64,000 bases of DNA from an uncultured delta proteobacterium. Its GTDB lineage: Bacteria > Myxococcota_A > Polyangia > Polyangiales > Houyiibacteriaceae. Numbering within the stretch: position 1 is the first letter of the stretch; every line of letters begins with the position of its first letter. The notes under the pieces are model-generated. The model was not told the origin of the DNA. It was given only the letters and a program-made list of their open reading frames with translations, and did no database searches. The DNA is taken from positions 64,064-128,063 of the forward strand of contig CAVWBW010000008.1 of NCBI GenBank assembly GCA_963753395.1. The letters are read 5' to 3'. This document shows positions 48,338 through 64,000 of this stretch, piece by piece. The translations under genes and the position numbers were made by a program.

Positions 48338-49723
<1,386 letters not shown>

Positions 49724-49748
49724 TATAGTGAGCGCTGGAGGATCTTCC

Positions 49749-50276
49749 TTGGCACCTCAGCGACGAAGCGCAGGCTTCACGACGATCGAGCTTCTGATCG
49801 GCGTGGCGATTGTGGGCATCTTGGCGGCACTCGCCGTGCCCACGTTCAAGAGCTACGTCTACAAGAGCCGCGTGAGTGAAGCCGTGACCGTGCTCAACGA
49901 GATCAGGACCAAGCAGGAAACCTACCGCAGCCGTTGGGGCAACTACGCTGCTGTGAGCGGCGGAGGAGACTGGGCGACGGCCAACTACACACCGACGACC
50001 AGCCCAGGTGCCCAGGCCGTGGTATGGCCAGGCGGCGACGAGTGGGAAGAGCTCGGCCTTCGCTCGCCAGGGGTGGTGCGGTTCCAATACGCAACCGTCG
50101 CAGGCGCGCCGGGCTCCCCACCACCGCCGAGCAGCAATCTCCCAAACCGAGACTTCTGGTTCGCCGCGCAGGCCGTTGGAGACCTCGACGGAGACGACGA
50201 GACCTTCATTCTCGAGGTCTATTCACACTCGCGACGCATGTACAACAGCGCGGACGGCCAGGGAGGCTACGAATGA
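49749..50276 (+). CDS. Type IV pilin-like protein
   Basis: RRSAG|FTTIELLIGVAIVGILAALAVP; GGAGG RBS before TTG 49749 (alternative start 49707). Confidence 0.9.
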   Translation: MAPQRRSAGFTTIELLIGVAIVGILAALAVPTFKSYVYKSRVSEAVTVLNEIRTKQETYRSRWGNYAAVSGGGDWATANYTPTTSPGAQAVVWPGGDEWEELGLRSPGVVRFQYATVAGAPGSPPPPSSNLPNRDFWFAAQAVGDLDGDDETFILEVYSHSRRMYNSADGQGGYE

Positions 50277-50779
50277 AGCGCAATGAAGGCTTTACCATCA
50301 CCGAGCTCATGATCGCAGTCGTGATCATGGGCGTTTTGGCGACGCTCGCGATTCCGAGCTTCACGTCGTACATCTACAAGGCGCGCGTGTCCGAGGCGAC
50401 CACCTTCCTCGGCCAGATCAAGCAACGCCAGGACTCGTACAGGAACGAGTTTGGCCAGTATTGCGCCGTCAACGGTGACGACTGGGGCACCTACAACCCG
50501 ACGGATATTCCCGGCGACCCCGTCGTGTGGACGTCCACCGACGAGTGGGAGCAGCTCGGCGCCAGCCCGGACGGCCCGATTCGCTTTCAGTACGCTACGG
50601 TCGCAGGGTTCCCCGGAGACTCCCCGCCGTCTGGCACCAACATGGAAGAGGATGACCACTGGTTCGTAGCCAGAGCGCAGGGAGACCTCGACGAGGACGG
50701 TGTCGATTTCTTCGTCGAGGTCTACTCGCAATCGAATCAGATGTATAACAGTGCCATTGGAAAAGGTGGATGGCAGTGA
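50273..50779 (+). CDS. Type IV pilin-like protein
   Basis: MKRNEG|FTITELMIAVVIMGVLATLAIP; ATGA overlap with the previous pilin. Confidence 0.9.
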   Translation: MKRNEGFTITELMIAVVIMGVLATLAIPSFTSYIYKARVSEATTFLGQIKQRQDSYRNEFGQYCAVNGDDWGTYNPTDIPGDPVVWTSTDEWEQLGASPDGPIRFQYATVAGFPGDSPPSGTNMEEDDHWFVARAQGDLDEDGVDFFVEVYSQSNQMYNSAIGKGGWQ

Positions 50780-50815
50780 CAATTTGTGTCACCTGCAGGT
50801 GACAAATTCTGTCTA
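50776..50815 (+). promoter_or_regulatory. Tandem enhancer (putative PilR) binding sites
   Basis: GTGACA-ATTTG-TGTCAC (50776-50792) and GTGACA-AATTC-TGTCTA (50799-50815), about 75-115 bp upstream of the sigma54 site. Confidence 0.7.
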
Positions 50816-50889
50816 ACTAGGCCCCTTTTCGCCAGCGACGATCCGCGATTTGCCAATAATTTCCGCTTGAGGCTCCCCTTCCGGACAAT

Positions 50890-50905
50890 TGGCACGGCAG
50901 CTGCA
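50890..50905 (+). promoter_or_regulatory. sigma54 promoter of pilA
   Basis: TGGCAC-GGCAG-CTGCA with GG-N10-GC spacing. Confidence 0.85.
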
Positions 50906-50966
50906 TTGTATTTGGGCAGCAACTTTGGATTATGCGGGCACGGAGCCCGGGGGAAGGTAACGAAAC

Positions 50967-51539
50967 ATGAACAAGCTACTCTCGAAGAAAGAGGGATTCA
51001 CCCTCATCGAGCTGATGATCGTCGTCGCTATCATCGGCATTCTCGCCGCGATCGCGATCCCGGCATTCATCAACTACGTGAAGCGCTCCAAGACCTCGGA
51101 AGCGGGTGCGAACCTCAAGTCGCTCTTTCAGGGCGCTGCGGCGTACTACGAGCAGGAGAACTGGCAGGCGGGCATGGTTGCCGCTGGCAGCGCGGCTGCG
51201 GCCTCGACACACTGCCTCGTGCCGAGCGCGACGCCGAGCTGGGACGCGACCGACGCGAAGTACGTCGTCAACTGGAACGACGAGGCCGCCTCGTATCAGG
51301 CGCTCAACTTCGCACCGGCCGATCCGATCTACTTCGAGTACGTCATCATCTCGGACACGGCCGGCACGACCGCCGGCTGCGGCAAGCCGGCCGGAAGCAC
51401 CTCGGTGTACTCCTTCGAGGCGATCGGCGACCTCGATGGCGACGACGTCGAATCGAGCTTCAGGCTGGCCGCGGGCACCAACCCGGACAACGCGCTCTAC
51501 CGCGCACCGGGCATCCACTCGGTCGACGCACTCGAGTAA
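50967..51539 (+). CDS. pilA: Type IVa major pilin
   Basis: [26 protein letters not shown]; own sigma54 promoter and terminator; strongly biased codons. Confidence 0.9.
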
Positions 51540-51563
51540 TCGGGCCCGGATGACCTAACGGCG

Positions 51564-51597
51564 AAGGCCGCGGCGACTGCTGCGGCCTTTTGCTTTT
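51564..51597 (+). terminator. Rho-independent terminator after pilA
   Basis: AAGGCCGCGGC-GACT-GCTGCGGCCTT followed by TTGCTTTT. Confidence 0.8.
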
Positions 51598-51635
51598 AAG
51601 TGGCGCGGAGTGTTTTTGGCTATACTCGGACTGGG

Positions 51636-52478
51636 ATGGGGATTCGGATCATCGCATTCGCGTTGCTGCTGACGGCACTCACTGGGGTGTGGTCCCTCCG
51701 CAACCGCGCGATGACTCAGTACCTCGAGACCCAGACCTACGAAGACATCTACTACCTGCCGCCGCCCGATTGGCTGCAGGTGATGAGTCTCGGCTATCCA
51801 CGCGCCCTCGCCGACCTGATTTGGCTCCGTGCGCTCATCTATTTCGGGGACGAGTTCGAGAACAAGGGCGCGGTGAAACACGTCTTCAATTATGGCGAAT
51901 CGATGCTAGCCCTCGACCCCGACTTCCGCCGGGTGTATCGCTGGGTCGGCGTGGCTGCCGTTTATACGCCGGCGGGCAGCCCGACGGAGTTCATCGAGCG
52001 CGCCATCGACGTTCTGCGGCGCGGTATCGAGCGCTTTCCCAATGATGGGCAGCTCGCCTGGGACGCGGGCGCCACGATCGCATACGAGCTCCTTCCGAAT
52101 CTCCCGAAGGACGACCCCAGCCGTGAGCGCCTCGAGGCTGAGGCCAACGAACACATGATGGCGGCCGCCCGCCTCGGCGCTGGGCCCGATTGGCTCGTGA
52201 TCACGAACGCCACCGCGCTCCGCAAGCTCGGCGAGAAAGAGCGGGAGCTCCGCCATCTCGAGGAGATGTATGCACTGGTTCGGGACCCCAAGGTGCAAGC
52301 GGAAATCGAGGTCCGCCTCTCGCAACTTCGCGACGAGGCGTACGCGGAGGCCTTCCGTCGCGCCAACGAGGAGTTCGAGCAGCGAAGGAAGGACGAGTTC
52401 CCGTACGTTCCACCGACCCTCTACTTCTTCGTCGCCGACCCGATACAAAGCGCCATCAGCCTCGGGGACCCAAGTTAG
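51636..52478 (+). CDS. Pilus-associated helical membrane protein (myxobacterial PilG-like)
   Basis: N-terminal TM, ALADLIWLRALIYFG, LALDPDF, TPR-like helices; position directly after pilA. Confidence 0.6.
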   Translation: MGIRIIAFALLLTALTGVWSLRNRAMTQYLETQTYEDIYYLPPPDWLQVMSLGYPRALADLIWLRALIYFGDEFENKGAVKHVFNYGESMLALDPDFRRVYRWVGVAAVYTPAGSPTEFIERAIDVLRRGIERFPNDGQLAWDAGATIAYELLPNLPKDDPSRERLEAEANEHMMAAARLGAGPDWLVITNATALRKLGEKERELRHLEEMYALVRDPKVQAEIEVRLSQLRDEAYAEAFRRANEEFEQRRKDEFPYVPPTLYFFVADPIQSAISLGDPS

Positions 52479-53012
52479 GTGGCTCGCGGCGGCCCGAGAT
52501 TGAGCCTCATCGAGGCCGCTCTCTTAGTTTGCTTGGTGGCGGTGGTGCTGGCCGTGTTCGTCCCGACCTTCTTGCGCCGGGTGCGGACGAACAAGATCAG
52601 CGAAGCCGTGGAGCTCCTTCAGGAGATGAGCCGAAGCACGAGCGCGTACTACGACACCGCTTGGCCGTCGCTCGACCGACACTGTTTGCCTCCCCCGGCG
52701 GGGCCGACGCCGGGCGCGCCGACGGAGGATCCGCAGACGGTCGACTTCTTTTCTCCCGATACGAGGGGGCGCGCCACCTGGGAAGCCATCGGGTTTCAAC
52801 CGGAGCACCCGATCCGATTTAGCTACAGCTACACGCCGAGCGAACACGGCTGTGGCTTGCGCGGATCGGCGGGGGACGTCTCGATGGTGTTTCGCGCCGA
52901 AGGTGACCTCGACGCGGACGACGTACGATCGGTGTTCGAGCGGCGCGCCGTCGTCGGCCCGAACGGCTTCACCCCAGCCGACGCGCTTCTCGTACACCAA
53001 CGCACCGAGTAG
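52479..53012 (+). CDS. Non-canonical pilin-like protein
   Basis: PR|LSLIEAALLVCLVAVVLAVFVP, SEA, AEGDLDADD shared with neighbouring pilins. Confidence 0.75.
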   Translation: MARGGPRLSLIEAALLVCLVAVVLAVFVPTFLRRVRTNKISEAVELLQEMSRSTSAYYDTAWPSLDRHCLPPPAGPTPGAPTEDPQTVDFFSPDTRGRATWEAIGFQPEHPIRFSYSYTPSEHGCGLRGSAGDVSMVFRAEGDLDADDVRSVFERRAVVGPNGFTPADALLVHQRTE

Positions 53013-57361: not shown

Positions 57362-57694
57362 ATGGCGGAGAGGTTCGAGAACGACGCCGGCACGATCACC
57401 AAGGTCAAACCGGAGAAAAAGCTCAAACGTCCGCGGCTCTACCGGGTTTTGCTACACAATGATGACTACACCACCAGAGAATTCGTCGTCTTCGTCCTCG
57501 AGTCGGTCTTCCACCTGGGCGAGCAGGACGCGATCCGGGTCATGCTTCACGTCCACCACAACGGCGTCGGCGTGGCCGGCGTGTTCACTCGCGAGGTCGC
57601 CGAGAGCAAGGTTCAACGGGTCGAGCGCCTCGCCGCAGAGCAGGAATTCCCTCTCCGTCTGACGATGGAACCGGAAGAAGAGGAAGATCGCTAA
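57362..57694 (+). CDS. clpS: Clp protease adaptor ClpS
   Basis: YRVLLHNDDYTTREFV, MLHVHHNG, FPLRLTME. Confidence 0.97.
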   Translation: MAERFENDAGTITKVKPEKKLKRPRLYRVLLHNDDYTTREFVVFVLESVFHLGEQDAIRVMLHVHHNGVGVAGVFTREVAESKVQRVERLAAEQEFPLRLTMEPEEEEDR

Positions 57695-57695
57695 C

Positions 57696-59993
57696 ATGGC
57701 AGGCCCCGTCATCGACAAAGAGCTCCAAGCCACACTCCGCAAAGCCTTCGACCAAGCGGGACTCATGCGCCACGAGTACGTGACCCTCGAGCACCTGCTT
57801 CTCGCGCTTACAGACGACCCGAATGCGTCCAAGGCGCTCGGCGCCTGCGGTGCTGACGTGAAGCGGCTTCGGAAGCGCCTCGAGGAGTTCATTCAGGAGC
57901 GGTTGGCGCGCATCCCCGAGAACGTCTCGGTAGAGCCACGGCAGACCTTGGCAGTGGAACGCGTGCTGCAGCGCGCCGCCATACACGCGATCTCGTCCGA
58001 GATGAAGACGATCGACGGCAGCAACGTTCTGGTCCAGCTCCTCAAGGAAGAGGAGTCGTTCGCGGCCTTCGTCCTTCAGGAAGAAGGCCTCTCACCCCTG
58101 GACCTCAAGCGCTACATCTCGCACGGCGTTGGCACCGACATCGTCCCTGGCGAGAGCGACGCCTACACCGACACCGACTTCGAGGACGATGAAGGCGAAG
58201 GGGCTGGGGGACGCGACCCTCTCGAGGCCTTTGCGACCGATCTCATCGCGGAAGCGGCGGAGGGCCGGATCGACCCTCTGATCGGGCGCGAAGACGAGCT
58301 CCACAGGACCGTGCAGGTGCTTTGCCGGCGGCGGAAGAACAACCCGGTCTTCGTGGGTGAGCCTGGCGTCGGCAAGACGGCCATCGCAGAGGGCCTCGCG
58401 CGACGGGTCTACGAGGGCCGCGTACCGAAGGTTCTCGAAGACGCCCAGATCTTCTCTCTCGACATGGGCGCCCTGCTCGCCGGCACGAAGTTCCGCGGCC
58501 AGTTCGAGGAGCGCCTCAAGGCCGTGATGAAGCGGCTCCAAGAGCTCGACAACGCCATCCTGTTCATCGACGAGATTCACACCATCGTCGGCGCCGGCGC
58601 GACCACGGGCAGCTCGATGGATGCCTCCAACATCCTCAAGCCAGCCCTCGCGTCAGGGAAGCTTCGATGCCTGGGTTCGACCACCTATGCCGACTTCAAG
58701 CACCTCGATCGCGACCGGGCGCTCGCGAGGCGATTCCAGAAGATCGAGGTCCACGAACCAAGTGTCGAAGACACGATCGAGATCCTCAAGGGCCTCCGAC
58801 CGTATTACGAAGACCACCACGAGGTGAAGTACGACGACGACGCGATCGAAGCCTCGGTGCACCTGGCGCAGAAGCACCTCGTCGAGCGCTTCCTTCCGGA
58901 CAAGGCGATCGACGTCATCGACGAGGCCGGTTCGCTCGAACGCATGCGCCCCGAGAAGGAGCGAACCCATCGGATCACGATCAAGGAAATCGAGCGCGTC
59001 GTCAGTAAGATGGCCCGTGTGCCGGTGGAGTCCGTCAGTGCGAAGGAACGAGACCAGCTCAAAGAGCTCGGCCCTGAGCTTCGCAAGGTCATCTTCGGCC
59101 AGAACGAGGCGGTCGACAAAGTCGTCAGCGCGATCACGCTCTCGCGCGCCGGCCTTCGAGCCGATCACAAGCCGATCGGATCGTTCCTCTTCGCCGGGCC
59201 GACCGGCGTTGGTAAGACGGAGCTCGCAAGACAGCTCGCGCGCGTGATGGGAGTCGAGCTCCTCCGCTTCGACATGAGTGAGTACAGCGAGCGGCACTCT
59301 GTGTCCCGCTTGATTGGCGCCCCGCCGGGCTATGTTGGATTCGACCAAGGGGGATTGCTCACGGACGCCGTCCGCAAGCACCCGCACGCCGTCGTGATCC
59401 TCGACGAAATCGAAAAGGCGCATCCGGAGCTCTTCAACATCCTGCTTCAGGTGATGGACCATGCGAAGCTCACCGACAACAACGGACGCGAGGCGGACTT
59501 CCGCAACATCGTGCTCGTGATGACGACCAACGCCGGAGCTTTCGAGGCCACCGAGAAGGTCGTTGGCTTTGGCGGCGGCGAGGAGCCGAAAGACTTCGCC
59601 AGCGGACGCGCGCGCCAAGCGATCGAGCGGATCTTCACGCCGGAGTTCCGCAATCGGCTCGATTCGGTGGTGTACTTCAGCGGCCTTCACAAGAAGGTCA
59701 TCCGCAAAGTCGTCGACAAGGAGGTCGGCCTCCTTTGCGAGATGCTTGCGGAGAAGCAGGTTCGCCTCGAGCTCAGCGACGCGGCCCGCGACTGGCTCGC
59801 CGAGCACGGCTACGACCCGCAGATGGGCGCGCGGCCGATGGCCCGCCTCGTCGAGCAAAAGCTCAAGAAGCCCCTGGCCGAAGCGATGGTCTTCGGGACC
59901 CTCGAGGAAGGCGGCACCGCGCTGGCGGAGGTGCAGGATGGAGAGCTCAGCCTCTCCTTTCACGCGACGAACGCACCGCCGGCCGAGGCCTGA
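57696..59993 (+). CDS. clpA: ATP-dependent Clp protease ATP-binding subunit ClpA
   Basis: [42 protein letters not shown]; follows clpS. Confidence 0.97.
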
Positions 59994-60046
59994 GCGTCGA
60001 GAACGACCCTCCATGGCGGCCTTGCGCTAGCCTACGGCGTCCATCG

Positions 60047-60772
60047 ATGCCCGTGTACCTACTCGACAAGGAACTGATCTTCCCGCCGCCCGAAGATGCC
60101 AATGAAGAAGGCATCGTTGCGGTCGGCGGTGATCTCTGCCCTCAACGGCTGCTGCTGGCCTACCAACAAGGCATCTTCCCGTGGCCGGCTCGCGGCTATC
60201 CTTTGCTCTGGTTCTCGCCAGACCCTCGTTTCGCCCTCGTGCCGACGCGGACCCACGTCTCTCGGTCGCTTCGCAAGGTCATGCGCAAAGGAGAGCTCCG
60301 TGTTACCGCGGACACCGCGTTCGCGGATGTGATCACCGCGTGCGCCGCCGTGCCCCGCCCTAAGCAGCAGGGCACTTGGATCACCCGAGAGCTTCGCGAA
60401 GGCTACCTCGGGCTCCACGAGCTCGGATATGCGCATAGCATCGAGGCCTGGCGCGATGATCAACTGGTTGGCGGCCTCTACGGAGTGGCGATTGGGAAGA
60501 CGTTTGCCGGCGAATCGATGTTCGCGTCGGAGCCGGATGCATCGAAGGTCGCGTTCACGACTCTGCTAGGGCACCTCGCCGCGTGGGGCTTTCGCATCGT
60601 GGACTGCCAAGTACATACCGATCACTTAGCGCGCTTCGGCGCCACCATGTGGCCGCGAGAGCGCTTCCTCGGCGAGTGGCGCGCGGCGGTCGACGAGCCG
60701 AGCCGGATCGCGCCGTGGGAGCTGAACATGTCCCCGGAGGAGTCCCTCGCGTGCTTGCGATCGGGGCGATGA
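60047..60772 (+). CDS. aat: Leucyl/phenylalanyl-tRNA-protein transferase
   Basis: GGDL, AYQQGIFPW, WFSPDPR, AHSIEAW, LVGGLYG, GESMF, ASKVA, DCQ; start ATG 60047. Confidence 0.96.
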   Translation: MPVYLLDKELIFPPPEDANEEGIVAVGGDLCPQRLLLAYQQGIFPWPARGYPLLWFSPDPRFALVPTRTHVSRSLRKVMRKGELRVTADTAFADVITACAAVPRPKQQGTWITRELREGYLGLHELGYAHSIEAWRDDQLVGGLYGVAIGKTFAGESMFASEPDASKVAFTTLLGHLAAWGFRIVDCQVHTDHLARFGATMWPRERFLGEWRAAVDEPSRIAPWELNMSPEESLACLRSGR

Positions 60773-61662: not shown

Positions 61663-61680
61663 AAAACCGCGAAAGCGGTT
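61663..61680 (-). terminator. Putative terminator hairpin (minus strand)
   Basis: AACCGC-N4-GCGGTT followed by TT on the minus strand. Confidence 0.45.
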
Positions 61681-61690
61681 CTAACGTCCC

Positions 61691-61808
61691 GGAGAATCGG
61701 TCGCGACGCACGTGCTCGCGCCGGGGACCCCGCTCGGCCGTCTCCAAACGGCGCCATACAACTCGCCTCCCGCCCCGTCGCTGTGCCGCGCATCCCGACC
61801 GATTCTCC
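61691..61808 (-). ncRNA. Candidate structured RNA or MITE-like long hairpin
   Basis: 22-bp terminal inverted arms (19/22 identical; two of the three mismatches become G-U pairs on the minus strand) and inner stems. Confidence 0.4.
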
Positions 61809-61826
61809 TCCACACGCAACCGCCCC

Positions 61827-61983
61827 GCCCCCAATCCATGCGCGGCAGCGCGAGCCCGAAGGGCGAAGCCCGGCGCGAATGCGCCGCCAAGCCTCGGCGA
61901 AGCAAGGGGCGCGGAGGGAGGACTACGGGCGGAGGCGGGCGGGTCGGATGTAACTAAACCTCCCGACGCCATTCGCGTCCGCT
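61827..61983 (+). repeat. Dispersed REP-like element, copy 3 (full length)
   Basis: High identity to copies 1 and 2, with a compensatory GCCC-GAA-GGGC hairpin. Confidence 0.85.
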
Positions 61984-62076
61984 GACGCCGACGCTTGCGC
62001 CGAAGGCCCGTGGGCGGTGCGCAGCATCGCCTCTACGGGCTGGCGCTGGGGCCGACGCTGGGGCACGCTAGCTGGG

Positions 62077-62643
62077 ATGCACGAAGTGACCCAAGAAGCC
62101 GCCTCCACGACCAACCTAATCAACGCCATGGATCTCCGCTTCATGACGCTCGACGAGCTCGTCGCGCTCTTTCGTCGCCTCCCGGCCCCGTCGTTCGAAA
62201 AGATGCACGGTGAGTTCGCAGCGACGCTGCTCGAACAAGGGAGCGGCAGGGCGTTCATCACCGGACAGGTCGCGCTGAACATCAACGGCCGTTGGCTCTG
62301 CAAGGCATTCGAGCCCAGCGGGCCGAACGAAGGCCACGGCTACAACAGCTTCATGACACCGCGCGGCGTGAAGCGCGCGGTACGCATGAAGACGCGAATC
62401 GGTCCTTCGAAGATCCAAGGCGATTCCAACGACAGCTTCCATCTCGAGTACGCAGACTTGAACGACTTCAAACGAGGCGGCCCGGGCGGCGCATTCGTCC
62501 ACACGATGTTCGACGAGCTCCGTCAGGCCGGCCCCGGTCTCTACCTCGGCATCGGCCGCGTGGGCTTCACGAAGAAGCAACTCGACGAGCTCCACCCATT
62601 TATCCTCGAGGGGCCAGTGGCCGATTTCGTGCAGAAGAAGTAG
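62077..62643 (+). CDS. Hypothetical beta-rich protein
   Basis: WLCKAF...GYNSF...LEYA...DELRQAGPGLYLG pattern; start uncertain; stop is 3 bp before the next gene. Confidence 0.65.
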   Translation: MHEVTQEAASTTNLINAMDLRFMTLDELVALFRRLPAPSFEKMHGEFAATLLEQGSGRAFITGQVALNINGRWLCKAFEPSGPNEGHGYNSFMTPRGVKRAVRMKTRIGPSKIQGDSNDSFHLEYADLNDFKRGGPGGAFVHTMFDELRQAGPGLYLGIGRVGFTKKQLDELHPFILEGPVADFVQKK

Positions 62644-62646
62644 CGG

Positions 62647-64000
62647 ATGCTCAGCCGCGCCGTAGACGCGCTGAAGCGCTGGGCTGACGAGCACAGGGAG
62701 TGGATCATCATCGGGGTGGCCCTCCCCGCTGGAACCGTCGCAGGAGCTCTCGAACGCGCAAGGTCGTCGTTCCGCCCGAGCCCCAAGCCATCCGAGCATG
62801 ATACGCGCGTCGAACGTATTCAGGACGACGTCAGGCGGTACGCGGAGGCGCGCGACGTAGGCGAGGCGTGGGCGCAGAAGCCGCTTCGCACCGATCGCAA
62901 GGGTTCCGCATCGTTGAACGTCCGGATGTCCGACAAGTCCGCTTCGCAGACGGTCAACATGAGCGACCTGAGGAACATCCTCGAGGTGGATGAGGCGCGC
63001 GGGGTAATCCGAGTCGAGCCGTTCGTGACGGTCGGCGACGCTGCTGCGTATCTCGACGAGCGGGGTCTACAGCTCGAGGCCACGATCGAGATGAAGGATG
63101 CGACGCTCGGCGGCCTGGTGATGGCGCTCGGCATGACGACTCACTCCCACGTGTGCGGTCTCGTCCACGACACGGTGACGGCGTACGAGATCATCAGCGC
63201 GAAGGGCGAGCTCCTTCGGGTCACCGCCGACAACGAGCATTCCGACCTCTTTCGCGCCCTCCCCTGGAGCCACGGAACACTAGGTCTCCTCGTCGCGCTC
63301 GAGATGCGCGTGGTTGCGGCATCGTCTCACGTTCGGCTCGTCTACCGACCGTTCTACTCGCTCGACGCATACGCGAAAGAATACCAGCGACTCGCCCGAG
63401 CAGAGAGCCCTCCCCACTTCATCGAGGTTCTGATCTTCGACAAGGATCGCGCTGTGCTGATGGAGGGACACCTCGCCACGAGTGCGGAGGTTCGAGGTAG
63501 CGGGCTCCCTGTGAACGCGGTCGACAAGGCACACAAGCCGCTCTTCTACAAGCACGTGGAGAGCATGCTCGAGCTCGGCGAAGGCCGACGGCGCGAAGAG
63601 CTCGTTCCAATGCTCGATTATCTCATGCGCCACGACCGGAGCATGTGTATGTGTCTCGCGCAGATTCTTCCGACGGCGAATGAGGCCTGGTTCCGCTACA
63701 GCATGGGATGGATGCTTCCGCCCAACATGAGCTTTCTCAAGGGCACGCGTCCGGAGGCAGAGCGCGAAAACACCATTCGCAAGCAAGTCTGGCAGGAGTT
63801 CGCGTTCCCCGCCGAACACTTCTCCGAGATAGTCGCCCGCGCCCATGAGGAGCTCGAGATTTATCCGCTGCTCGCCTACCCGTGCAAAGTCATCGACCAC
63901 GGCGGCATGGTCCGGGCACCCGGCAATCACGGCAAGCCGTACCGCGGCGAGCCCGAAACCGCGGCCTTTCTCGATCTCGGCATCTACGGAATCCCTGAGC
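62647..64000 (+). CDS. FAD-binding Delta24-sterol reductase-like protein (DHCR24/DWF1 family), 3'-truncated by window edge
   Basis: Translated by hand with no stop before the window end: HDTRVERIQDDVR, ILEVDEARGVIRVEPFVTVG, DLFRALPWSHGTLGLLVALEMRV, KPLFYKHVE, FRYSMGWMLPP, FLDLGIYGIP. Confidence 0.85.
   Translation, partial: MLSRAVDALKRWADEHREWIIIGVALPAGTVAGALERARSSFRPSPKPSEHDTRVERIQDDVRRYAEARDVGEAWAQKPLRTDRKGSASLNVRMSDKSASQTVNMSDLRNILEVDEARGVIRVEPFVTVGDAAAYLDERGLQLEATIEMKDATLGGLVMALGMTTHSHVCGLVHDTVTAYEIISAKGELLRVTADNEHSDLFRALPWSHGTLGLLVALEMRVVAASSHVRLVYRPFYSLDAYAKEYQRLARAESPPHFIEVLIFDKDRAVLMEGHLATSAEVRGSGLPVNAVDKAHKPLFYKHVESMLELGEGRRREELVPMLDYLMRHDRSMCMCLAQILPTANEAWFRYSMGWMLPPNMSFLKGTRPEAERENTIRKQVWQEFAFPAEHFSEIVARAHEELEIYPLLAYPCKVIDHGGMVRAPGNHGKPYRGEPETAAFLDLGIYGIPE

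What the first reader, a model, noticed from the sequence alone, without database searches (positions are those of the whole stretch)
62647..64000. Eukaryote-like DHCR24/DIMINUTO sterol reductase homolog missed by the ORF track
Seen in sequence: an uninterrupted ORF runs to the window edge. Its motifs are colinear with my recollection of animal DHCR24 and plant DWF1 along the whole length: N-terminal hydrophobic segment, H..RV..IQ..VR, ILEVD...RVEP.VT.G, DLF.A.PWS.GTLG.LVA.E, KP.F.KHVE, RH.RS, FRY..GWM.PP, and D.G.YG.P. The FAD-binding loop is divergent (EATIEMKDATLGGLVMALGMTTHSH). Established: several myxobacteria synthesise sterols. Inference: a sterol side-chain reductase or isomerase, possibly with altered substrate, co-transcribed with the unknown gene at 62077-62643 (3-bp gap).
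Basis: partly seen in the sequence, partly recalled or inferred. Interest (0 to 1): 0.7.

Follow-up and report, generated by a model that had tools for sequence, protein, structure and literature searches.

The report
Divergent bacterial sterol side-chain reductase paralogue
An uncultured myxobacterium carries an intact, divergent second copy of the cholesterol-pathway enzyme DHCR24; because many carriers have no sterol cyclase gene, it likely remodels the side chain of scavenged sterols rather than finishing home-made cholesterol, and its activity is untested.

Summary
Observation confirmed. The ORF is intact (560 aa; stop 329 nt past the window) and a full-length DHCR24-family flavoprotein: an animal-DHCR24 profile gives E 6e-106 over 31-512/517, the best generic FAD oxidase 8e-12; 10 of 11 human disease-variant residues are kept. 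The genome encodes SQE, OSC, CYP51, two SMTs and steroid-degradation genes, plus a second DHCR24 (38% identical) beside an SMT. This gene is not that copy. It belongs to a separate bacterial clade (B) that groups with Nannocystis-type DHCR24 and the orphan invertebrate 'DHCR24-like' proteins (100/99), which share the supposedly divergent FAD loop. Clade B's own changes lie elsewhere (IFW to MCM). Only 13 of 31 same-genus carriers have OSC, while 32 of 41 carrier genomes have KshA-type oxygenases; some copies sit beside CYP51 or CYP125. Best reading: a C-24 side-chain reductase/isomerase for scavenged sterols (about 0.5). Co-transcription with the upstream gene is not conserved. Bacterial DHCR24 homologues are published, and this scan noted a similar clade before on other DNA (e1-4623243). 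New variant of a known kind; modest interest.

The parts
62647..64000 (+). First 451 codons of a 560-aa DHCR24-family flavoprotein (clade B); the gene ends 329 nt beyond the window (G000:C8:126710-128392)
   Evidence: AlphaFold model mean pLDDT 88.6, DprE1/cytokinin-oxidase-like fold, Z 26.6, rmsd 3.0 over 371 residues
62704..62760 (+). Moderately hydrophobic segment, residues 20-38, helical in the model; inferred membrane-association segment
   Evidence: hydropathy 1.42; helix 17-42
62941..63222 (+). Pfam FAD_binding_4 match, residues 99-192
   Evidence: E 7.9e-15
63082..63150 (+). FAD loop, residues 146-168; A152/T164/T165 shared with Nannocystis-type and invertebrate DHCR24-like proteins; H168 invariant in all six groups
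63643..63651 (+). Clade-B signature M333-C334-M335 where other groups have I/L-F-W (mammalian 335-337); further signature sites H481-T482, S488 and W502 lie beyond the window
   Evidence: 99% of 119 clade-B rows; F and W in 94-100% of rows of the five other groups
62077..62643 (+). Upstream 188-aa gene of unknown function; neighbour only, not shown to be a partner
   Evidence: no Pfam or NCBIfam hit; ESM Atlas nearest named family DUF4334/GXWXG at 0.85, a lead only; distribution independent of clade B

Best explanation
The gene encodes an intact DHCR24-family flavoprotein of a separate bacterial clade that likely acts as a membrane-associated, NAD(P)H-dependent reductase (possibly with isomerase activity) of the sterol C-24 side-chain double bond, likely working mainly on sterols taken up from prey or sediment. 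Shown: sequence family, fold, conserved FAD-site residues, tree position and genomic co-occurrence. Inferred from known DHCR24/DWF1 chemistry: NAD(P)H reduces non-covalently bound FAD, flavin hydride goes to the side-chain alkene and a proton completes saturation, giving cholesterol- or cholestanol-type side chains. Inferred from distribution: in these steroid-degrading myxobacteria the saturated product would go into membranes or to side-chain oxidation, and in OSC-positive strains such as this one the enzyme would also accept home-made intermediates, while the SMT-linked paralogue would handle 24-alkyl sterols.
For: Full-length DHCR24 homology with R94, R103, L167, M169, E191, N294, K306, Y471, D473 and E480 equivalents kept (variant list from passages of PMC10795535, numbered through a 516-aa canid orthologue that matches all 14 listed human residues). 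Nested inside the family with outgroups. Nearest groups are Nannocystis-type DHCR24, 41-43% identical. Lee and Welander (PMC12004948, results and discussion read) credit the canonical C-24 reductase of E. salina with its cholesterol, on proteomic grounds (data not shown); Hoshino's Fig. S18 text lists E. salina beside N. exedens. Sterol-handling neighbours: CYP51 across a TetR gene in L078 (L081 shows the same layout), CYP125 and a PRK07798 acyl-CoA synthetase in L083. Carriers: KshA_C in 32 of 41, ERG4/ERG24 family in 31 of 41, strong OSC-type cyclase in 17 of 41; 10 carriers at least 95% complete lack OSC. Own genome has HsaA-like, KshA-like and meta-cleavage genes.
Against: No activity data for clade B. 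The animal sister group is the one with weak activity: BmDHCR24-2 shows almost no desmosterol reduction (passage in PMC8471071). The near-invariant FW (336-337), L470 and M476 are replaced, E174 is T, and the clade has a long stem (0.61), so the substrate may differ. Clade B coexists with the SMT-linked copy in 12 of 55 genus genomes and with a Nannocystis-type copy in G183 and G186, which argues against plain redundancy. Five carriers titled Spirochaetes, Aureispira or Lentimicrobiaceae showed no OSC, KshA or ERG4/24 match (MAGs, several on short contigs). KshA and ERG4/24 look near-universal in this lineage, so their co-occurrence is largely shared descent. Most neighbourhoods hold no sterol gene.
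Confidence: 0.5

Rival explanations
1. It acts on the sterol side chain with different chemistry: oxidative 24(28)-dehydrogenation of 24-alkyl sterols (sitosterol to fucosterol, the step Ciufo et al. proposed for animal group 2), or reduction of a 22 or 25(27) double bond, priming plant and algal sterols for degradation.
For: Sister to group 2, for which this role was proposed (section 23 of PMC3124498); clade-specific substitutions; coexistence with other DHCR24 types; CYP125 neighbour; the fold's solved members are oxidases or dehydrogenases.
Against: No experiment supports the proposal, and a 2025 preprint doubts an ancestral dealkylation role for DHCR24-like (passages). Nannocystis-type members of the same group are credited with C-24 reduction (PMC12004948). 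No association with SMT in the genus (22 of 31 carriers against 38 of 55 overall).
Confidence: 0.2
2. It is the dedicated last step of de novo cholesterol synthesis in this bacterium (desmosterol to cholesterol), with the SMT-linked paralogue serving phytosterol-type products, like the SSR2/SSR1 pair of nightshades (pairing recalled, not from a call).
For: The genome has MVA genes, SQS, SQE and OSC in one cluster, CYP51, two ERG4/24 genes, EBP-family and sterol-desaturase-family genes. In G177, G178 and G179 clade B is the only DHCR24-family match beside an OSC-type cyclase.
Against: 18 of 31 genus carriers have no OSC match, 10 of them at least 95% complete; 7 OSC-positive genomes lack clade B. 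The gene lies on another contig than the OSC cluster.
Confidence: 0.15
3. Clade B has left sterol metabolism and saturates or oxidises another isoprenoid lipid (for example a quinone or carotenoid side chain).
For: Carriers with no other sterol gene found (G180, G181, G184, G190, G191); loss of the conserved aromatic pair FW; long branch.
Against: It nests among sterol enzymes, not with the outgroups; 36 of 41 carrier genomes have OSC, KshA or both; sterol P450 neighbours in three loci.
Confidence: 0.12

Closest known systems
Canonical C-24 reductase (DHCR24 homologue) of Nannocystaceae, e.g. Nannocystis sp. P0220; E. salina and N. exedens in PMC12004948 and PMC8237579
   Same: Same side of the 100/99 split; 41-43% identity, the highest outside clade B; same FAD loop A152/T164/T165.
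   Different: Keeps IFW and FLYAD where clade B has MCM and HTYCD. Both types coexist in G183 and G186. Reported to follow OSC vertically in its family, whereas clade B does not track OSC.
Invertebrate 'DHCR24-like' (group 2 of Ciufo et al. 2011, PMC3124498)
   Same: Crustacean, nematode and flatworm proteins group with clade B and the Nannocystis type and share the loop. Their 37-42% identity to group 1 matches the published 34-42%.
   Different: 36-39% identical to the query; function unknown. My assignment of these sequences to group 2 rests on taxa and identity; the named B. mori and C. elegans proteins were not retrieved.
Vertebrate/animal DHCR24 (group 1)
   Same: Full-length colinear homology; 10 of 11 disease-variant residues kept.
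   Different: 30-35% identity; opposite side of the split; first N-terminal hydrophobic stretch absent; E174 to T, FW to CM.
SMT-linked DHCR24/DWF1-like paralogue in the same genome (P0123, G000:C2:25815-27482)
   Same: Same family, 38% identity.
   Different: Directly downstream of a sterol methyltransferase, 50-53% identical to fungal and stramenopile enzymes; a clade of the two paralogues is rejected (p-AU 0.0016). Plant DWF1 itself was not retrieved.
Bsr, GGR-family bacterial C-24 reductase (PMC12004948)
   Same: Performs the reaction proposed here in Sandaracinus and Minicystis.
   Different: Unrelated fold. Whether this genome has Bsr was not settled.

Membership tests
DHCR24/DWF1 family | Full-length homology beyond the FAD domain | tested here: met
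   E 6.4e-106 over 31-512 of 517; next non-DHCR24 ORF in the genome 7.8e-12, N-terminal domain only
DHCR24/DWF1 family | FAD_binding_4 domain and VAO-type two-domain fold | tested here: met
DHCR24/DWF1 family | Residues hit by human desmosterolosis missense variants | tested here: met
   10 of 11 identical, L324 is M; FAD contacts E174 and I510 are T and V (list)
DHCR24/DWF1 family | Nests within the family rather than with outgroup FAD oxidoreductases | tested here: met
   quick tree, 33 rows, SH-aLRT 99 on two nested branches; outgroup branches are very long, so the root is unsure
DHCR24/DWF1 family | N-terminal membrane segment | tested here: inconclusive
   hydropathy maximum 1.42 against 2.0-2.1 in P0469, P0220 and P0228 and 1.25 in P0123
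DHCR24/DWF1 family | NAD(P)H-dependent reduction or isomerisation of the C-24 double bond | not testable with these tools
   needs enzyme assay
Group 1 (vertebrate-type) DHCR24 | Clusters with vertebrate DHCR24; E174, IFW | tested here: not met
SMT-coupled DWF1-like reductase | Linkage or co-occurrence with a sterol methyltransferase | tested here: not met
   no SMT-like match in the clade-B loci L022-L029; 22 of 31 carriers have SMT, background 38 of 55; met by the paralogue P0123
SMT-coupled DWF1-like reductase | Direct comparison with plant DWF1, SSR2 or 24ISO | not tested
   no plant sequence was among the named hits
Nannocystaceae-type / invertebrate DHCR24-like group | A152, T164, T165 FAD loop | tested here: met
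   100% of 119 B, 9 N and 13 group-2 rows for A152, T164 and T165
Nannocystaceae-type / invertebrate DHCR24-like group | IFW and FLYAD motifs; inside the N plus group-2 clade | tested here: not met
   clade B is sister to that clade (98/91) and unresolved against it; motifs differ
De novo bacterial sterol pathway | SQE and OSC in the genome | tested here: met
De novo bacterial sterol pathway | Gene tracks OSC across carriers | tested here: not met
   13 of 31 in the genus; 7 of 17 among genomes at least 95% complete; 17 of 41 in the GTDB set
Generic bacterial FAD-linked oxidases (DprE1, GlcD/E, lactone oxidases) | Reaches a curated model cut-off | tested here: not met
   best 37.7 bits against cut-off 396.8; 14-18% structural identity

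The most novel reading that the evidence does not exclude
Clade B, the Nannocystis-type enzymes and the orphan invertebrate 'DHCR24-like' proteins form one subfamily, dominated by bacteria, that is separate from animal DHCR24 (a single animal clade is rejected, p-AU 0.0002). Clade B is its sterol-scavenging branch and runs the still unassigned first step of phytosterol side-chain remodelling (24(28)-dehydrogenation or an isomerisation). A bacterial gene would then give a tractable handle on the unknown enzyme of insect, crustacean and nematode phytosterol dealkylation, and sediment bacteria, including spirochaetes, would be rewriting sterol side chains that geochemists read as eukaryote-specific biomarkers.
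Probability: 0.1. Interest if true: 0.75.

Novelty: new variant of a known kind. Interest (0 to 1): 0.38.

Why it matters
Bacterial DHCR24 homologues are known, so the gene's existence is no surprise. What would matter: (1) if clade B works on scavenged sterols, abundant sediment myxobacteria that cannot make sterols still alter side-chain saturation, which bears on sterane and stanol biomarkers; (2) the tree ties the uncharacterised invertebrate DHCR24-like proteins to myxobacterial enzymes rather than to animal DHCR24, which makes a question open since 2011 testable with easily expressed bacterial proteins; (3) one genome holding two distant DHCR24 types and two SMTs offers a direct paired assay of division of labour.

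Tried and rejected
Recent duplication of the two paralogues: rejected. Recent transfer from a eukaryote: no sign; GC3 is typical and nearest relatives are bacterial. Operon with the upstream gene: not conserved; the promoter and terminator scan found nothing, which is uninformative for this host. Xenologous replacement of the Nannocystis type by clade B in one genus (G321 against G333): no shared flanks. ERG2 family: no match, but the control rang nowhere. Bsr: two GGR proteins; one is BchP, the other is MenJ-like below cut-off, and no GGR was found in four relatives' OSC regions to compare with, so unresolved. Solved DHCR24 structure: none found by sequence or fold, so the position of the MCM signature relative to the substrate pocket was not measured. 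Expression: no RNA holder listed. Contigs of three DNA runs cover parts of the gene without indels inside it; one run may be the source. Rows dropped: one search kept 176 of 304 proteins after length and 75% identity filters; P0247 was removed from the clade-B alignment because it carries Nannocystis-type motifs; one row (L040) was dropped by the tree program. Fisher tests ignore kinship and are descriptive. The 41-genome set and the 55-genome genus set overlap and are not independent. The GTDB scan used two clade-B patterns, so carriers that differ there were missed.

Full report
Observation. The ORF starts at 62647 and is open to the window edge. The genome (G000, 4.94 Mb, 99.4% complete) extends it to 560 aa, ending 329 nt past the window. 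Pfam finds only FAD_binding_4, and no NCBIfam oxidase model comes near its cut-off. A profile of 115 animal DHCR24 sequences matches positions 31-512 of 517 at E 6.4e-106; the only other full-length match in the genome is a second DHCR24, and the next ORF scores 7.8e-12. The AlphaFold model (pLDDT 88.6) has the DprE1/cytokinin-oxidase fold. Using a 516-aa canid orthologue that matches all 14 human residues named in passages of PMC10795535, 10 of 11 disease-variant positions are identical in the query.

Host. The closest named records are titled Myxococcales, Polyangiales, Sandaracinaceae or Deltaproteobacteria MAGs, among them 'Myxococcales bacterium SG8_38' at 75% identity; runs holding the stretch are sediment and soil metagenomes. 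The genome has one cluster with mevalonate genes, squalene synthase, squalene epoxidase and a cyclase (the mevalonate and synthase names are my reading of the translations). The cyclase scores 683 bits on the oxidosqualene cyclase model, below its cut-off of 851 but far above the hopene model, and aligns to human lanosterol synthase with V at position 453. Also present: CYP51, two ERG4/ERG24 genes, three EBP-family and six FA_hydroxylase-family genes and two sterol methyltransferases. It also carries steroid-degradation genes: eight KshA_C matches, two HsaA-like proteins just under the cut-off, meta-cleavage enzymes, thiolases and a PRK07798-type ligase.

Two paralogues. A second DHCR24 (P0123, 38% identical) lies directly downstream of a sterol methyltransferase, an arrangement repeated in relatives, and is 50-53% identical to fungal and stramenopile enzymes. 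The gene of this finding is not SMT-linked. A clade of the two paralogues is rejected (p-AU 0.0016).

Tree. FastTree on 176 of 304 proteins and IQ-TREE LG+C20 on 50 chosen rows place the query in a long-stemmed clade B (100/100). One branch (100/99) separates clade B, Nannocystis-type proteins and a crustacean/nematode/flatworm group from vertebrate-type DHCR24, fungi, stramenopiles and the SMT-linked paralogue. With outgroups, clade B stays nested (quick tree, long outgroup branches, root unsure). The invertebrate group is 37-42% identical to vertebrate-type DHCR24 and 54-59% to the Nannocystis type, which fits group 2 of Ciufo et al. (PMC3124498; passages and section 23). Holding the two animal groups together is rejected (p-AU 0.00018; the groups were named after seeing the first tree). 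No plant, human, B. mori or C. elegans sequence was in the trees.

What is divergent. Clade-B-specific sites are N91, M333-C334-M335 (I-F-W elsewhere), H481-T482, S488 and W502. Whether these line the substrate pocket was not measured.

Distribution. Of 55 same-genus genomes, 31 have clade B, 24 the SMT-linked type, 20 OSC and 38 an SMT. Only 13 of the 31 have OSC, and 10 carriers at least 95% complete have none. Of 41 GTDB carrier genomes, 17 have a strong cyclase, all with the OSC-type motif, 32 have KshA_C and 31 an ERG4/ERG24 gene. Carriers outside the myxobacteria are titled Spirochaetes (3), Aureispira, Lentimicrobiaceae, Actinomycetota, Dongiaceae and Proteobacteria DTSAM18, and Spirochaeta isovalerica has a 53% identical protein. 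The five spirochaete and Bacteroidota MAGs showed none of the three sterol markers. Neighbourhoods vary; the informative ones are CYP51 in L078 and L081 and CYP125 with a PRK07798 ligase in L083. Clade B coexists with a Nannocystis-type copy in G183 and G186 and is the only match in G177, G178 and G179. In 151 order-level and 251 class-level genomes it was found almost only in this genus.

Upstream gene. It has no family and a weak DUF4334/GXWXG lead. It occurs in 28 of 55 genus genomes, 18 of them clade-B carriers, and is adjacent in 3, once head-to-head. Co-transcription here is possible but is not a conserved unit.

Mechanism. Most likely a flavin-mediated, NAD(P)H-dependent reduction (perhaps with isomerisation) of the C-24 side-chain alkene, acting mostly on scavenged sterols (0.5). 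Family, fold, residues, tree and co-occurrence are shown; substrate, direction, cofactor use and membrane location are inferred. Rivals: altered side-chain chemistry (0.2), a dedicated last step of de novo cholesterol synthesis (0.15), a non-sterol isoprenoid (0.12). Against the best reading: the characterised animal member of the sister group has almost no desmosterol activity (passage of PMC8471071), and the clade coexists with other DHCR24 types.

What is known. Bacterial DHCR24 homologues are in print: M. capsulatus (passages of PMC2817430), methanotrophs and myxobacteria (passages of PMC4919349), Nannocystaceae and E. salina (PMC12004948, parts 1-4 of 7 and supplement legends; passages of PMC10202945 and PMC10152446). 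Hoshino and Gaucher allow a bacterial origin, and the text of their Fig. S18 lists an uncultured deltaproteobacterial sequence beside N. exedens and E. salina (PMC8237579 passages and supplement part 29); I could not fetch it, so clade B may already be in that tree. That listing has no group-2 invertebrate. Functional myxobacterial SMTs are known (passages of PMC10070321). A 2025 preprint treats DHCR24-like as an arthropod duplication, and its main text has no occurrence of 'bacteri' (10.1101/2025.04.14.648839, passages; figures and supplements not seen). Searches returned no description or assay of clade B; the library lacks most subscription papers, and Fig. S12 of PMC12004948 could not be seen. 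This scan already noted a similar clade on other DNA (e1-4623243).

Verdict. Real gene, correct family, partly right interpretation. New variant of a known kind; interest 0.38. The most novel reading not excluded (probability 0.1, interest 0.75) is that this subfamily holds the unassigned phytosterol side-chain remodelling step.

Noticed in passing
window 61680-62000: Dispersed intergenic repeat upstream of the 188-aa gene: about 60-145 blastn hits per position across the genome, with imperfect inverted arms and very high contig depth in three metagenomes; REP- or MITE-like.
   Followed up: partly
G000:C2:25815-28533 (L007): SMT followed by a second, more canonical DHCR24/DWF1-like gene, conserved in relatives; with a second SMT and a Rieske gene next to the OSC cluster (C4:268598-270684) this predicts saturated 24-alkyl sterols in a bacterium. 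12 of 24 genus carriers of this copy have no OSC match.
   Followed up: partly
P0214, P0210, P0227, P0228, P0231 against P0220: Invertebrate DHCR24-like proteins are 54-59% identical to Nannocystis DHCR24 but 37-42% to vertebrate-type DHCR24; one animal clade is rejected. Ancient paralogy or transfer from bacteria; direction not tested.
   Followed up: partly
G000:C13:157-27700 (L139): Photosynthesis gene cluster: BchP and BchG pass NCBIfam cut-offs; puf, puh and bch neighbours read from translations. Phototrophic Myxococcota are reported (PMC10576062, search listing only).
   Followed up: partly
G000:C14:207303-222855 (L132), C13:127241-130477 (L135): Steroid-degradation clusters (KshA-like, HsaA-like, meta-cleavage enzymes, thiolases) in a genome that also encodes de novo sterol synthesis; multiple KshA_C genes in most relatives.
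   Followed up: partly
G000:C12:59079-63276 (L134): CYP51 with TetR and ferredoxin genes, and a 271-aa protein that looks like cyclopropylsterol isomerase CPI1 (resemblance recalled; no Pfam hit), although the OSC has the lanosterol-type V453.
   Followed up: no
P0314, P0344, P0364, P0377: 890-916-aa proteins made of two tandem DHCR24-like units, each matching most of the profile (three checked); source unnamed.
   Followed up: no
L033-L041: A further DHCR24 type in 7 of 10 genomes of family f7 and two others (33-37% to the query), branching apart from clade B and the SMT-linked type.
   Followed up: no
window 49707-53012: Run of type IV pilin-like genes with N-terminal methylation motifs (read from translations); clpS, clpA and aat-like genes at 57362-60772.
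   Followed up: no
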